64,000 bases of DNA. Origin: Escherichia coli O157:H7. GTDB taxonomy: Bacteria > Pseudomonadota > Gammaproteobacteria > Enterobacterales > Enterobacteriaceae. The position numbers were made by a program. The number at the start of each line of letters is the position of its first letter. Position 1 is the first letter of the stretch. The stretch is from assembly GCF_013167455.1 (NCBI RefSeq), contig NZ_CP038328.1. The stretch is one strand, 5' to 3'. Of the stretch, positions 51,001-57,000 are shown in pieces.

Positions 51001-54000
51001 GCTTGTAGAGATCGAGCACCAGATCTTCGGCGCCTGTCGGCGCGGCGGCTTCGAGTTTCTCGATATGCAGAACGCCGTTTTCAATCGACCCGCCCGGGAT
51101 CGTGCCTGCGCGAGCGGCACGGCCAAGCTCGCGCAACCGCATGTCGAGGCGAGCTTGCCGGTCTGCCAGCCATTCCTCCGGCCGCAATGGCACAGCGAGA
51201 CGACCGCCTTCCGCGATGGATTGTGCCGGAACGAGTGCGTGTTTCAGATCGCCATAGCGCCGGGACCTAGTAAGCCAGACATCTCCGGAGCGGAACGCAT
51301 CGCGCAGATGGAACAGCACCGCGATCTCCCATAGGCGAGCGTCGCCAGCCCTCTGGGCCCGAAGGTGGCGATGCCATTTCGAGCTGGGCCGCAAGAAGCT
51401 GGTCATCGCGGCATCGTTCAAACCGGTACGAAGGGCCGTCACCGCTTCCAGAAGCGGCAGTGCAACGGGCGCAGCTCGCAGATCGAGCAGGCGCAACATG
51501 CGTGGAGCGTATCGGCGGAAGCGGTGATAACCGTCGAGCACATGATTGAGCGGATCGTCGGCCATGGTGGCGGTCAGCCTGGTTGCCATTGCAACAAGGG
51601 TTTTTAAGCCGTCCCACCCTGACCCACTCGCGATGACATCGCCCAGCGGCTGGCCATCATCCTGTGCATCGACCAGGGCGCCCCCGATCTCGGCGAAGGA
51701 TTTCAGGGTGTCACGCACCACCCCCGCTTCGTCTGCGACCTTTGCATGGCAAATACGCTCCGAAGCACGGTAGAGACGGCCGACGATCCGGTCGTGGGTT
51801 TCGACCACTGCGTCGGCCAACATCGCCTGCCATTCCGAGACGCAAACAGCCAAGATCGCAAGCCGCCTGTCCTCCGGGAGATCGCGCATGCCGTCGGCAT
51901 AATACCGTTCACCCTGCCTGCGCAGACGAGTCACCCGATGGGCAGGAACGCCGGCAAGCAGATCCTCGGGGAGATCGATGCGTTGCAGATATTCGAGCCG
52001 GTCGAGCAGCCGGTTGGCCGACGAAGAGTTCGAGCCAGGCTCGAACTGGCGCAGCCACACAAAACGGGTCACCCGATCATCAGCCGTCTCCTCGAGCAAT
52101 GCCAGCAACTGTTCTCGGATCGACATAGGCAGCCGACTGGCGATCCTCGTCTCGATGCGTCGCTCGGCATCGACGAGAGCCGCGGCACAAAGCCGCTCGA
52201 TCGTGGATGTCGCGGGAAGGACAGTGCGGGTGCGTCGGCACTCGGCTACGAAGCGACGGGCGATATCCTCGTTCGACACCGCCATCTCGGCTTCTCGGAA
52301 CAACCATTCCTTCAGCTCGCTCGCACCACGTCCGGAGAAGGTGCGGAAGCCGTAGAGCCCCCGTAACTCGGCAAGATGCTCGTGCCGTGTTTCCTCGCGG
52401 GCAGCATAGTCTACGAGATCGTCGGCACCCAGGCCAAGCTGCGCTCCGATAAATTCGATGACCTCTGCAGGGATCAGTTCGCCTGGAGCCAGCACCCGGC
52501 CGGGATAGCGCAGGACACACAATTGCAGGGCGAAGCCGAACCTGTTGTGAGCGCGCCGACGCAGCCTGATATGCCCAAGGTCTTCATCACTCAGCGTATA
52601 GTGCTTGAGCAAATCCGTCTGTGAAGTCGGCAAGCGCAACAGCGCGTCTTTCTGCCGATCGGTTAGAGTGACGCGACGCGGCATACATGTTCCTTTTTCA
52701 AAATCTGATAGCGTTCAAGACGCTTTGTTTATGAAGCTGGTTGAGATACATTTCCAGAGGTCAATGCAATCGTGGCCGAAGCGCCGCCTCAAACCAACGT
52801 TTGTGATACATGCTGATCGGATATGCCCGCGTCTCCAAAGCCGATGGCTCGCAGTCTCTCGACCTGCAGCACGACGCCTTGCGCGCCGCAGGTGTCGAAC
52901 GGGACAATATCTATGATGATCTTGCTTCCGGCGGTCGTGATGATCGCCCTGGCTTGACTGCCTGCCTCAAGTCATTGCGTGACGGCGATGTGCTGGTGGT
53001 CTGGAAGCTCGATCGCCTCGGACGATCGCTTGCCCATCTGGTCAACACGGTGAAGGAGCTGTCAGACCGCAAGATCGGCCTGCGGGTTCTGACTGGAAAG
53101 GGCGCTCAGATCGACACCACGACTGCGTCCGGTCGCATGGTGTTCGGAATCTTCGCCACCTTGGCCGAGTTCGAGCGGGATCTGATCCGAGAGCGCACCA
53201 TGGCGGGTCTCGCCTCCGCGAGAGCGCGCGGTCGCAAGGGCGGACGAAAATTCGCGCTCACCAAAGCTCAGGTGCGTCTCGCGCAAGCCGCCATGGCCCA
53301 GCGCGATACTTCAGTTTCCGATCTCTGCAAGGAACTCGGCATCGAGCGCGTCACTCTCTACCGATATGTCGGTCCCAAAGGCGAGCTCAGAGACCATGGT
53401 GGTCTTGCCTCGGTTTCGTTCCGGTCTTTTTGAGAGCATTATTTGTTATCAAGGAGACCATATATGTCATTAAAGCATAGTGATGAATTTAAGCGTGATG
53501 CAGTTCGCATAGCACTCACTAGTGGCTTAACACGCCGTCAAGTTGCGTCAGATTTAAGTATTGGGCTTTCCACGCTTGGGAAATGGATCGCATCAATTTC
53601 CGATGAAACTAAAATTCCTACCCAAGACACTGATCTTCTGCGTGAGAATGAACGTTTACGCAAAGAGAACCGTATCCTTCGGGAGGAGAGGGAGATATTA
53701 AAAAAGGCAGCAATATTTTTCGCAGTACAAAAGCTGTGAGATTTCAGTTTATTACGGATTACCGTGGCTCTCTCTCACGTTCACGCATATGTCGTTTGAT
53801 GGGCGTAACAGATCGTGGTTTACGCGCATGGAAACGCCGTCCTCCATCACTGCGCCAGCGTCGTGATCTTATACTTCTAGCGCATATACGTGAGCAGCAT
53901 CGGTTGTGTTTGGGGAGCTATGGTAGGCCGCGTATGACAGAAGAGTTGAAAGCGCTGGGCCTGCAGGTTGGGCAGCGTCGGGTTGGACGTTTGATGCGCC

Positions 54001-57000
54001 AGAATAACATTACAGTTGTTCGAACGCGTAAATTCAAACGGACAACGGATAGTCATCATACCTTCAACATTGCACCGAACCTATTAAAACAAGACTTTAG
54101 CGCAAGCGCACCCAACCAGAAATGGGCAGGCGATATCACTTATGTTTGGACCAGAGAAGGATGGGTCTATCTTGCTGTTATCCTTGACCTGTATTCCCGT
54201 CGCGTGATTGGCTGGGCAACAGGTGATCGATTAAAGCAGGATCTTGCATTAAGGGCACTGAATATGGCGTTGGCTTTACGCAAACCACCACCGGGTTGTA
54301 TTCAACACACAGACCGTGGGAGCCAATATTGCGCTCATGAATATCAAAAGCTACTGCTCAAACATCAATTGCTGCCGTCCATGAGCGGGAAAGGCAATTG
54401 TTTTGATAACTCCGCAGTAGAAAGCTTCTTTAAATCATTAAAGGCTGAGTTGATTTGGCGCAGACACTGGCAAACAAGGCGAGATATTGAGATTGCAATC
54501 TTCGAATATATAAATGGCTTTTATAATCCACGCCGAAGACATTCAACACTCGGCTGGAAATCGCCGGTGGCATTTGAGAAAAAAGCCGCTTAAAATGAGA
54601 GATAGACCGGAACACAACCGGTGCAAGACCATGGAAAGCATGTTCTCGGACTTACGTAGCAACTCGTTTCTTTTCGCAGGTTGAGCCACCTCCGCGCTTC
54701 ATCAGAAAACTGAAGGAACCTCCATTGAATCGAACTAATATTTTTTTTGGTGAATCGCATTCTGACTGGTTGCCTGTCAGAGGCGGAGAATCTGGTGATT
54801 TTGTTTTTCGACGTGGTGACGGGCATGCCTTCGCGAAAATCGCACCTGCTTCCCGCCGCGGTGAGCTCGCTGGAGAGCGTGACCGCCTCATTTGGCTCAA
54901 AGGTCGAGGTGTGGCTTGCCCCGAGGTGATCAACTGGCAGGAGGAACAGGAGGGTGCATGCTTGGTGATAACGGCAATTCCGGGAGTACCGGCGGCTGAT
55001 CTGTCTGGAGCGGATTTGCTCAAAGCGTGGCCGTCAATGGGGCAGCAACTTGGCGCTGTTCACAGCCTATCGGTTGATCAATGTCCGTTTGAGCGCAGGC
55101 TGTCGCGAATGTTCGGACGCGCCGTTGATGTGGTGTCCCGCAATGCCGTCAATCCCGACTTCTTACCGGACGAGGACAAGAGTACGCCGCAGCTCGATCT
55201 TTTGGCTCGTGTCGAACGAGAGCTACCGGTGCGGCTCGACCAAGAGCGCACCGATATGGTTGTTTGCCATGGTGATCCCTGCATGCCGAACTTCATGGTG
55301 GACCCTAAAACTCTTCAATGCACGGGTCTGATCGACCTTGGGCGGCTCGGAACAGCAGATCGCTATGCCGATTTGGCACTCATGATTGCTAACGCCGAAG
55401 AGAACTGGGCAGCGCCAGATGAAGCAGAGCGCGCCTTCGCTGTCCTATTCAATGTATTGGGGATCGAAGCCCCCGACCGCGAACGCCTTGCCTTCTATCT
55501 GCGATTGGACCCTCTGACTTGGGGTTGATGTTCATGCCGCCTGTTTTTCCTGCTCATTGGCACGTTTCGCAACCTGTTCTCATTGCGGACACCTTTTCCA
55601 GCCTCGTTTGGAAAGTTTCATTGCCAGACGGGACTCCTGCAATCGTCAAGGGATTGAAACCTATAGAAGACATTGCTGATGAACTGCGCGGGGCCGACTA
55701 TCTGGTATGGCGCAATGGGAGGGGAGCAGTCCGGTTGCTCGGTCGTGAGAACAATCTGATGTTGCTCGAATATGCCGGGGAGCGAATGCTCTCTCACATC
55801 GTTGCCGAGCACGGCGACTACCAGGCGACCGAAATTGCAGCGGAACTAATGGCGAAGCTGTATGCCGCATCTGAGGAACCCCTGCCTTCTGCCCTTCTCC
55901 CGATCCGGGATCGCTTTGCAGCTTTGTTTCAGCGGGCGCGCGATGATCAAAACGCAGGTTGTCAAACTGACTACGTCCACGCGGCGATTATAGCCGATCA
56001 AATGATGAGCAATGCCTCGGAACTGCGTGGGCTACATGGCGATCTGCATCATGAAAACATCATGTTCTCCAGTCGCGGCTGGCTGGTGATAGATCCCGTC
56101 GGTCTGGTCGGTGAAGTGGGCTTTGGCGCCGCCAATATGTTCTACGATCCGGCTGACAGAGACGACCTTTGTCTCGATCCTAGACGCATTGCACAGATGG
56201 CGGACGCATTCTCTCGTGCGCTGGACGTCGATCCGCGTCGCCTGCTCGACCAGGCGTACGCTTATGGGTGCCTTTCCGCAGCTTGGAACGCGGATGGAGA
56301 AGAGGAGCAACGCGATCTAGCTATCGCGGCCGCGATCAAGCAGGTGCGACAGACGTCATACTAGATATCAAGCGACTTCTCCTATCCCCTGGGAACACAT
56401 CAATCTTACCGGAGAATATCGTTGGCCAAAGCCTTAGCGTAGGATTTCGCCCTCTCCCGCAAACGACCCCTACGTACATATTGAATGTTTCAAGAAGAGA
56501 GTTCTGCCCATCCACCCTCACGTCGCCCTTACTTTTGTCATTGAGAGCTATCTGTGTATCACGCGCTTTAACTATACCTCCGGTGGTAATATTCAGTTCA
56601 CCCGTGCCTAATACACCGACCTGTAGCAATTGGGCGTTAGTAGAAGACGTCTTTAAATTCCAGAGACTATCCGTTGAAATATTAACTATTCCCTTACCGG
56701 AGGCATTTCCTCCGATAAATCCATAGCCCGTTGAATTAAGGGTGGCACCATTACTGACATTTACGATACCGCTACCAAAATTACCGACATTGATACCCAC
56801 AGTATCGAACGACGATGTCGCATCCATCAGGTTCAGTGTGCCGATACCGCTTGCTTTATCGCCCAAAAAAGTAATATTTTGCGATACGAACTTACCGCCA
56901 TCGCTAATATTGAGGTTTCCGACGCCCGCAACACCAATGGTGGTATAGACATTCTTATTGACCTCCCATATCCCCCCCGTGGTGATGCTAACCTTCCCGA

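What the first reader, a model, noticed from the sequence alone, without database searches (positions are those of the whole stretch)
53397..54634. IS1133-like IS3-family element nested at the 3' end of tnpR, with intact frameshift signal
Imperfect 27-bp inverted repeats sit at 53400-53426 and 54605-54631, giving a 1232-bp element with TG...CA termini flanked by the 3-bp direct repeat TGG. OrfA contains the A_AAA_AAG slippery heptamer (53700-53706) positioned for -1 frameshifting into the DDE OrfB. The insertion replaces the last few codons of the resolvase gene (tail ...DHGGLASVSFRSF comes from IS sequence) and sits 93 bp upstream of strA, where an outward-reading or hybrid promoter could drive strAB.
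Basis: partly seen in the sequence, partly recalled or inferred. Interest (0 to 1): 0.55.

Follow-up and report, generated by a model that had tools for sequence, protein, structure and literature searches.

The report
IS1133 inserted in Tn5393 tnpR end
This is an intact copy of the well-known insertion sequence IS1133 sitting between the resolvase gene and the streptomycin-resistance genes of transposon Tn5393, in an already sequenced alternative position (the one in plasmids R64 and pYR1), so it is ordinary.

Summary
Window 53400-54631 is a 1232-bp IS3-family element with 28-nt terminal inverted repeats (24/28), TG...CA ends and a 3-bp TGG target duplication. OrfA and orfB overlap with A_AAA_AAG in phase for -1 frameshifting. 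It is IS1133 itself: 100% identical to copies annotated as IS1133, and 3 nt different from the classical Tn5393 copy.

It replaces the last 7 codons of tnpR with 10 IS-encoded codons and ends 93 nt before strA.

It is the site found in R64 and pYR1 (named Tn5393l and Tn5393i), here without their later Tn10 insertion. The window is 100% identical to the E. coli FRIK1989 chromosome.

The promoter idea stays untested. It gains indirect support: public plasmids hold at least five independent IS1133 insertions within 82 bp upstream of strA, all in the same orientation. That favours IS-borne outward transcription over a junction-specific hybrid promoter.

Verdict: a real feature, already known, of low interest.

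The parts
53397..53399 (.). Left copy of the 3-bp target-site duplication TGG. It lies inside tnpR codons 196-197.
   Evidence: The empty site ...ACCATGGAAAGC... is seen in L002.
53400..53427 (+). IRL of IS1133, starting TGGTCTTG.
   Evidence: 28 nt, 24/28 match with IRR. The same end occurs in L003, L012, L013 and L007-L010.
53423..53459 (+). RNA hairpin of -18.1 kcal/mol. Its 3' arm holds the orfA Shine-Dalgarno AAGGAG (53451-53456). The tnpR stop TGA (53431-53433) lies in its 5' arm.
   Evidence: z about -4.2 to -4.6, with 0 of 200 and 0 of 500 shuffles folding as well. The stem is kept in the diverged relatives L006 and L010. Its function is inferred.
53464..53739 (+). orfA of IS1133, 91 aa, with an HTH_Tnp_1 domain.
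53700..53706 (+). Slippery heptamer A_AAA_AAG for the -1 programmed frameshift. A purine-rich Shine-Dalgarno-like run, GGGAGGAGAGGGAG, lies at 53681-53694 just upstream.
   Evidence: PGAP annotates a 'programmed frameshift', joined CDS 53464..54593, on the identical FRIK1989 sequence.
53706..54593 (+). orfB reading frame (-1 relative to orfA), with HTH_21 and rve domains. In OrfAB numbering the catalytic residues are D224, D284 and E320, with K327.
   Evidence: NF033516 transpos_IS3, 395 bits, profile 1-369/369; rve 5e-27.
54567..54596 (+). Candidate outward-reading sigma-70-like promoter inside the IS right end: GTGGCA, 18 nt, TAAAAT. It is a consensus match only.
   Evidence: It is retained next to strA in R64 and pYR1, where Tn10 sits at 54547-54555.
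54604..54631 (+). IRR of IS1133, ending CAAGACCA.
54632..54634 (.). Right copy of the target-site duplication TGG.
52810..53433 (+). Tn5393 tnpR (serine resolvase), 207-aa variant. Residues 1-197 are native and residues 198-207 (GLASVSFRSF) are encoded by IRL.
   Evidence: The same protein, WP_000904897.1, is encoded in FRIK1989, R64 and pYR1. Gamma-delta resolvase aligns only to residues 2-188.
54657..54659 (.). TAG, the native tnpR stop codon and the target of the classical Tn5393 IS1133 insertion. It is unoccupied here.
   Evidence: L002, L018.
54725..55528 (+). strA, aph(3'')-Ib.
   Evidence: (NF032895, 638 bits, full length).
55528..56364 (+). strB, aph(6)-Id.
   Evidence: PGAP annotation of the identical sequence.
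49766..56470 (.). The whole Tn5393::IS1133, 6705 bp. It has 81-bp terminal IRs (77/81) and a 5-bp target duplication TACGT at 49761-49765 and 56471-56475.

Best explanation
Window 53400-54631 is an intact, probably active copy of IS1133, an IS3-family element that moves by copy-out/paste-in. Its transposase OrfAB is made by a -1 ribosomal frameshift on A_AAA_AAG. OrfAB carries N-terminal HTH domains and a DDE (rve) catalytic domain.

The element inserted with a 3-bp TGG duplication into codons 196-197 of the Tn5393 resolvase gene. That is 25 bp upstream of the classical Tn5393 site. The insertion swaps the last 7 residues of TnpR for 10 IS-encoded ones. These lie beyond the part of TnpR that aligns with solved resolvases, so the change is probably harmless.

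The arrangement is the one present in plasmids R64 and pYR1, before Tn10 entered the IS there. The whole 6.7-kb transposon later moved as a unit into an autotransporter gene of an E. coli chromosome.

Two steps are inferred rather than shown. First, the IS reads toward strA and supplies or passes on the transcription that strAB need, most likely from within its right end or by read-through rather than from a junction-specific hybrid promoter. Second, the landing spot was chosen because the target hexamer AGACCA mimics the IS's own right end.
For: Identity. The element is 100% identical over 1238 bp to records annotated 'IS3-like element IS1133 family transposase, programmed frameshift'. It differs by 3 nt from the classical copy.

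Anatomy. The fused product hits NF033516 at 395 bits over the full profile. Pfam finds HTH_Tnp_1, HTH_21 and rve. The catalytic residues are D224, D284, E320 and K327.

Target duplication and empty site.

R64/pYR1 site. The left junction is matched 120/120 in at least 33 plasmids, including R64 and pYR1. R64 is identical to the window from tnpR to strA apart from Tn10 at 54547-54555. The literature describes the same order of events: IS1133 inserted into the Tn, then Tn10 into IS1133 (PMC4541600). Tn5393i is described as carrying IS1133 at a different location, in tnpR (PMC10333595).

Movement as a unit. The window, R64 and pYR1 have different outer flanks, and the window copy has a 5-bp TACGT duplication.

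TnpR tail. The replaced residues lie beyond the region homologous to gamma-delta resolvase.

Transcription role. Five independent insertions share the same orientation and lie 93, 68, 58, 24 and 14 nt from strA. An inserted IS raises the resistance level, and Tn6023 in the same spacer silences strAB (PMC10333595). A candidate promoter lies at 54567-54596.

Targeting. AGACCA occurs only once on the + strand of the 5470-bp IS-free Tn5393, and it is exactly 3 bp from IRL.
Against: No transcript data exist for this configuration. The only promoter-like hit in 52600-54800 is a 9/12 consensus match, and shuffled sequence gives about 2 such hits.

The predicted RNA structure downstream of the slippery site is not better than shuffles (z -1.25), and Rfam finds no frameshift element. 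Frameshifting therefore rests on the heptamer, the reading-frame layout and the full-length profile match.

The clustering of insertions could reflect target preference or sampling of selected resistance plasmids rather than promoter delivery.

The ISfinder reference sequence could not be consulted directly.
Confidence: 0.85

Rival explanations
1. Neutral passenger. IS1133 simply landed in one of the few dispensable stretches of Tn5393, or in a preferred target region, and has no effect on strAB expression. strAB are transcribed from the res/tnpR promoter straight through the IS.
For: The promoter scan gives no more hits than shuffled sequence. The AGACCA end-mimic shows that target choice alone can explain this particular site. 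Read-through across the IS is possible, because no terminator-like site was found at the IS right end.
Against: Five independent insertions lie in an 82-bp stretch of a 5.5-kb transposon, all reading toward strA. An IS in Tn5393 is reported to raise the resistance level, and a different insert in the same spacer silences strAB (PMC10333595). In L003 the IS-strAB unit persists with IS26 replacing the upstream tnpR/res region.
Confidence: 0.3
2. Hybrid promoter. A -35 element in IRR combines with a -10 element in the flanking Tn5393 spacer to create a new junction-specific promoter for strA.
For: Copy-out/paste-in IS ends often carry an outward -35 that forms hybrid promoters (PMC7780238).
Against: No -35/-10 pair spanning 54631/54632 was found, even with relaxed criteria. 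The five insertion sites have five different flanks at different distances, so a junction-dependent -10 is unlikely to be the common cause.
Confidence: 0.08
3. Local hop. The copy in the window derives from the classical Tn5393 copy by a 25-bp local move rather than by independent acquisition.
For: The two sites are only 25 bp apart and in the same orientation.
Against: The window copy has T/A at IS positions 4/1229 and C at position 426, whereas the classical copy has A/T and T. The window alleles are those of copies outside Tn5393 (Paenochrobactrum, metagenome contigs) and of the other three sites. The classical TAG site here shows no scar.
Confidence: 0.05
4. Different boundaries. The element is defined by the 9-bp direct repeat AGACCATGG (53391-53399 and 54626-54634) rather than by TGG.
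For: The 9-bp repeat is really there, so the comparison with the empty site alone cannot place the junction.
Against: Copies in four other sites and in other genomes all end ...CAAGACCA and start TGGTCTTG..., each with its own 3-bp duplication.
Confidence: 0.01

Closest known systems
IS1133 in classical Tn5393 (E. amylovora pEa34; represented here by P. syringae pv. actinidiae pMAFF212063-A, L002)
   Same: It is the same IS: 1229 of 1232 nt identical, with the identical transposase protein WP_085959879.1. It has the same orientation, the same 3-bp duplication length, the same host transposon, and it also lies upstream of strA.
   Different: The classical copy sits 25 bp further downstream, on the tnpR stop codon TAG, 68 nt from strA. 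That leaves the 204-aa TnpR intact. Its ends read TGGACTTG...CAAGTCCA rather than TGGTCTTG...CAAGACCA.
Tn5393 variants of R64 (called Tn5393l, or Tn6082::IS1133::Tn10) and of pYR1 (Tn5393i)
   Same: These have the identical tnpR-IS1133 junction, the same 207-aa TnpR (WP_000904897.1) and the same IS-strA junction.
   Different: In R64 and pYR1, Tn10 is inserted in IS1133 at window-equivalent 54547-54555, and pYR1 also carries IS903B. The window has the uninterrupted IS, which is the presumed progenitor form. That form is seen in only 4 plasmid records and, among 5426 complete E. coli genomes, in FRIK1989 alone.
IS911 / IS3 / IS150, the studied IS3-family models
   Same: Shared features are two overlapping ORFs, the A_AAA_AAG -1 frameshift, a DDE transposase, TG...CA ends and a 3-bp duplication. 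Insertion abutting a sequence that resembles the element's own end recalls the IR-targeted insertion of IS911. That last point is from my own knowledge and was not retrieved here.
   Different: No statistically supported downstream stimulatory RNA structure was found, and Rfam gives no hit. Circle formation and a junction promoter were not tested.
IS6100 in Tn5393b (X. campestris)
   Same: It is an IS inside or next to tnpR of Tn5393, and it is reported to raise strAB-mediated resistance (PMC10333595).
   Different: It belongs to a different IS family (IS6) and has a different position within tnpR.

Membership tests
IS3 family | Two consecutive, partly overlapping ORFs, with orfB in the -1 frame and a slippery A_AAA_AAG-type motif in the overlap. 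| tested here: met
   orfA is 53464-53739. The orfB frame is open from 53706 to 54593. The heptamer at 53700-53706 is in phase. PGAP calls a programmed frameshift on the identical sequence.
IS3 family | A transposase matching the IS3 profile, with an rve (DDE) catalytic core and the D..D..E(K) spacing. | tested here: met
   NF033516 scores 395 bits against a cut-off of 160, covering profile positions 1-369 of 369. Pfam rve scores 5e-27. D224 to D284 is 60 residues, D284 to E320 is 36, and K327 follows.
IS3 family | Terminal inverted repeats ending 5'-TG...CA-3', and a short (3-5 bp) target duplication. | tested here: met
   The IRs are 28 nt with 24/28 matching. TGG is duplicated, and the empty site was seen.
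IS3 family | Copy-out/paste-in transposition through a circular intermediate with an IRR-IRL junction. | not testable with these tools
   This needs PCR for circle junctions or in vivo assays.
IS1133 (same IS by the ISfinder convention of over 95% nt identity) | Near-identity to the IS1133 reference from Tn5393. | tested here: met
   The element is 1229/1232 identical to the copy at the classical Tn5393 site (L002) and 100% identical to many records annotated IS1133.
Tn5393 (Tn3 family) | tnpA and tnpR are divergent around res, strA-strB lie downstream of tnpR, the terminal IRs are 81 bp, and the target duplication is 5 bp. | tested here: met
   tnpA is 49799-52684 (-) and tnpR is 52810-53433 (+), with 125 bp between them. 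strA and strB follow. The IRs are 81 bp with 77/81 matching. TACGT is duplicated.
Classical Tn5393 (pEa34 type) | IS1133 inserted at the tnpR stop codon (TAG duplication), with an intact 204-aa TnpR. | tested here: not met
   The window's insertion is 25 bp upstream with a TGG duplication and a 207-aa TnpR.
IS-borne promoter activating a downstream resistance gene | A transcript for the resistance gene starts inside or at the edge of the IS, and expression depends on the IS. | not testable with these tools
   The only evidence is a consensus candidate at 54567-54596, together with the orientation and clustering argument.

The most novel reading that the evidence does not exclude
The 82-bp stretch at the tnpR end and tnpR-strA spacer of Tn5393 is a recurrent, orientation-specific landing pad for IS1133, with at least five independent events. 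This would reflect convergent selection for IS-driven, TnpR-independent transcription of strAB.

At the TGG site specifically, tnpR translation now terminates inside the 5' arm of the hairpin that masks the IS's own ribosome-binding site. Transposase synthesis would then become translationally coupled to tnpR expression.
Probability: 0.3. Interest if true: 0.35.

Novelty: already known. Interest (0 to 1): 0.15.

Why it matters
The practical value is bookkeeping. The finding is a correct annotation of a resistance transposon variant in an E. coli chromosome (FRIK1989 type). It also shows that 'Tn5393 with IS1133' is not one structure. The insertion site (TGG, TAG, TTT, ATC or TGA) and the two end alleles can serve as lineage markers for strAB spread.

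If the recurrent same-orientation insertions really reflect promoter delivery, Tn5393/IS1133 would be a tidy natural example of convergent IS-mediated activation of a resistance operon. This would extend a known principle rather than add a new one.

Tried and rejected
1. Rfam scan of 52600-54800 at E<=1 gave no match, so no curated frameshift element was found.

2. Folding the 91 nt downstream of the slippery site gave a 9-bp stem at 53718-53741, but z was only -1.25. It is not claimed as a stimulator.

3. A relaxed promoter search found no hybrid -35/-10 across the IS-flank junction. The hybrid promoter idea was set aside.

4. The primary papers (Chiou & Jones 1993; Sundin & Bender 1995) are not held under PMID or PMC id. 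What I recall of them beyond the review PMC10333595 is marked as memory.

5. The genome contigs and metagenome-contig scans for IS ends returned only 5 loci each. They gave the T-allele in non-Tn5393 contexts but no new Tn5393 sites.

6. The alternative 9-bp boundary (AGACCATGG repeat) was rejected by comparison with copies at other sites.

7. A local hop from the classical site was rejected on the allele pattern.

'Five sites' is a lower bound, and the record counts (about 420 classical, at most about 80 window-type right junctions) are estimates from the identity and coverage bands.
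Full report
**Observation.**
The region was read directly and searched for repeats. The strongest inverted repeat in 53200-54850 has arms at 53400-53427 and 54604-54631, 28 nt with 24/28 complementary. It bounds a 1232-bp segment that begins TGGTCTTG and ends CAAGACCA. TGG lies on both sides, at 53397-53399 and 54632-54634. The segment has 46% G+C, against 61% for tnpR and 56% for strAB, as expected for foreign DNA.

Two ORFs fill it. OrfA, from the ATG at 53464, ends at 53739. 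OrfB ends at 54593. AAAAAAG at 53700-53706 falls as A_AAA_AAG in the orfA frame, and orfB is in the -1 frame. Slipping there gives a 376-aa product without stops.

**Identity.**
The fused protein matches the NCBIfam IS3 transposase model over its whole length: NF033516, 395 bits, cut-off 160, profile 1-369 of 369. It carries Pfam HTH_Tnp_1, HTH_21 and rve domains. The catalytic residues are D224, D284 and E320, at spacings of 60 and 36, with K327 seven residues after E.

The 1238-bp query is 100% identical to plasmid and chromosomal records whose annotation reads 'IS3-like element IS1133 family transposase', with a programmed frameshift joining the same start and end. So this is IS1133 itself.

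The whole window is 100% identical to the chromosome of E. coli FRIK1989, a bovine isolate. This was checked over window 1-60634. FRIK1989 is the only one of 5426 complete E. coli genomes with an uninterrupted full match.

**Boundaries and target duplication.**
In P. syringae pv. actinidiae pMAFF212063-A (L002) the tnpR 3' end reads ...GAGACCATGGAAAGCATG... without interruption. The window has one extra TGG plus 1232 bp. Many IS-free Tn5393 plasmids show the same empty site (rows matching query 95-226).

The left flank AGACCATGG repeats the last six IS bases plus the duplication, so the empty-site comparison alone leaves a 9-bp ambiguity. That is resolved by IS1133 copies in other flanks (L003, L012, L013, and Paenochrobactrum contigs). 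All of them start TGGTCTTG and end CAAGACCA, each with its own 3-bp duplication.

In the classical arrangement (L002, metagenome contig L018) IS1133 is inserted 25 bp further downstream. It duplicates TAG, the tnpR stop codon, and leaves a 204-aa TnpR ending DHGKHVLGLT. In the window the insertion falls in codons 196-197. Residues 198-204 (KHVLGLT) are replaced by ten IS-encoded residues (GLASVSFRSF), and the stop is TGA at 53431-53433.

The window-type left junction is matched 120/120 by at least 33 plasmids, among them R64 and Yersinia ruckeri pYR1. Both encode the same 207-aa TnpR, WP_000904897.1. R64 is base-for-base identical to the window from tnpR to strA, except that Tn10 is inserted in the IS with a 9-bp duplication of 54547-54555.

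The literature already describes this. For R64, the order given is IS1133 into the Tn5393-like transposon and then Tn10 into IS1133 (PMC4541600). Tn5393i of pYR1 is noted to carry IS1133 'not at the same location ... (namely in tnpR)' (review PMC10333595 citing Cain and Hall 2011). The window therefore holds the Tn10-free progenitor form of a known variant.

That uninterrupted form is rare. It occurs in four plasmid records and in FRIK1989.

**Context.**
The transposon spans 49766-56470, 6705 bp, with 81-bp IRs (77/81). It is flanked by a 5-bp TACGT duplication inside an autotransporter gene next to lsrK. The outer flanks differ in R64 and pYR1. The IS-bearing transposon has therefore moved as a unit several times.

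That history fits a still-functional TnpR. So does the fact that gamma-delta and Tn3 resolvases align only to TnpR residues 2-188 (Pfam Resolvase 3-142 and HTH_7 145-186). The replaced residues lie beyond the DNA-binding helix-turn-helix. TnpR function is an inference, not a test.

**Mechanism of the IS.**
By family membership, IS1133 should move by copy-out/paste-in through a circle with abutted ends (mechanism as summarised in PMC1636345 and PMC7780238). The frameshift is supported by four things: the heptamer, the frame layout, a purine-rich Shine-Dalgarno-like run 5-19 nt upstream, and the unbroken profile alignment of the fusion. The downstream stem at 53718-53741 is not better than shuffled sequence (z -1.25), and Rfam has no match.

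A much stronger structure lies at the left end. The hairpin at 53423-53459 (-18.1 kcal/mol, z about -4.6) pairs the subterminal IRL with the orfA Shine-Dalgarno AAGGAG. It is the kind of fold-back that shields IS transposase genes from outside transcription. This comparison is an analogy from memory with IS10.

At this particular site the extended tnpR frame stops inside the 5' arm of that hairpin. Ribosomes finishing tnpR should open it, 31 nt before the orfA ATG. This could couple transposase translation to tnpR. It is a hypothesis only.

**Target choice.**
AGACCA, the last six bases of the IS, occurs once on the + strand of the 5470-bp IS-free Tn5393. That single occurrence is exactly 3 bp from IRL. 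The left junction therefore looks like an IRR-3 bp-IRL circle junction. By my estimate (not a tool output), only about 4 of roughly 11,000 position-and-orientation choices would give this. The estimate is post hoc. The pattern fits the IR-targeted insertion known for IS911 (from memory).

**strAB expression.**
The consensus scan finds a single candidate, GTGGCA-18-TAAAAT at 54567-54596. It lies inside the IS, reads outward, and is not above chance. A relaxed scan finds no pair spanning the junction.

The stronger argument is comparative. PLSDB holds IS1133 at five different positions in an 82-bp stretch just upstream of strA:
- TGG: the window, R64 and pYR1.
- TAG: the classical site.
- TTT: CP122637.
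- ATC: CP066329.
- TGA: MZ532978.

Each has its own 3-bp duplication, and all read toward strA, ending 93, 68, 58, 24 and 14 nt before it. Two further records are recombinants between copies at different sites: CP043748 (TAG left, TGG right) and CP138429 (TAG left, ATC right).

Two statements from the review fit this picture. An IS in Tn5393 raises the resistance level, and Tn6023 in the same spacer silences intact strAB (PMC10333595). Together with the five sites, this favours selection for transcription coming out of or through IS1133, and it argues against a junction-specific hybrid promoter. It remains an inference, and target preference or sampling bias is the rival.

**Verdict.**
The finding is real and correctly interpreted, but it describes a known IS in a known, already sequenced variant position of a known transposon. 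Novelty is 'already known' and interest is low. The side observations are modest leads, not discoveries. They are the recurrent insertions, the mirror-image end alleles, the hairpin and tnpR-stop geometry, and a possible Brucellaceae reservoir.

Noticed in passing
window 53403 and 54628 (IS positions 4 and 1229); L002 3005 and 4230: The window copy and the classical Tn5393 copy of IS1133 differ at only three positions. Two of these are mirror-image positions of the two terminal repeats, with complementary changes (TGGTCTTG...CAAGACCA against TGGACTTG...CAAGTCCA). The third is a synonymous C/T at IS position 426. A chance coincidence is unlikely, about 1e-3 by my own estimate. This suggests co-selection or homogenisation of the two ends. 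The T/A allele is the one seen outside Tn5393.
   Followed up: partly
L003 (CP066329), L012 (MZ532978), L013 (CP122637), L002; window-equivalent 54632-54713: At least five independent IS1133 insertions lie within 82 bp upstream of strA. All are in the same orientation and each has its own 3-bp duplication (TGG, TAG, TTT, ATC, TGA).
   Followed up: partly
L011 (CP043748) and L014 (CP138429): Hybrid IS1133 copies have a left end from the classical site and a right end from the TGG or ATC site. They give a 25-bp duplication or a 41-bp deletion of the spacer. Homologous recombination between differently placed copies is the evident cause.
   Followed up: yes
window 53423-53459: A stable hairpin (-18.1 kcal/mol, z about -4.6) masks the orfA ribosome-binding site. 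The IS-encoded end of tnpR (stop at 53431-53433) lies in its 5' arm, so tnpR translation may unmask transposase translation at this site only.
   Followed up: partly
window 53391-53399: The left flank AGACCA+TGG copies the IS right end plus the duplication. AGACCA occurs only once on this strand of the IS-free transposon. This is suggestive of end-mimic targeting.
   Followed up: partly
L007-L010 (Paenochrobactrum gallinarii DSM 22336) and L006 (Brucella thiophenivorans): Among 100,044 species-representative genomes, the IS1133 left end was found only in these two Brucellaceae. P. gallinarii has several contig-end copies, three of them identical to the window over 93-291 nt, plus a diverged relative. 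This may indicate a natural reservoir of the IS.
   Followed up: no
window 46153-49765 and 56471-58291 (- strand): Tn5393 splits an autotransporter gene (ECSE_1600 family, with an ESPR signal peptide) and is flanked by the 5-bp duplication TACGT. The C-terminal part is also annotated as frameshifted in the identical FRIK1989 record.
   Followed up: partly
window 54547-54555: This is the exact point where Tn10 sits in R64 and pYR1, with a 9-bp duplication. It leaves the last 76 bp of IS1133, including the candidate promoter, next to strA.
   Followed up: yes
window 44433-46082 and 14149-16538: In the identical FRIK1989 record these are annotated as truncated hipA-like toxin and HTH (hipB-like) remnants and a frameshifted dosP. 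They were not examined further.
   Followed up: no
L004 (R64) 4148-4218: In R64 the left Tn5393 IR start is 70 bp from the tnpA stop, against 33 bp in the window. This implies an indel of about 37 bp just inside the left IR. It was not examined.
   Followed up: no
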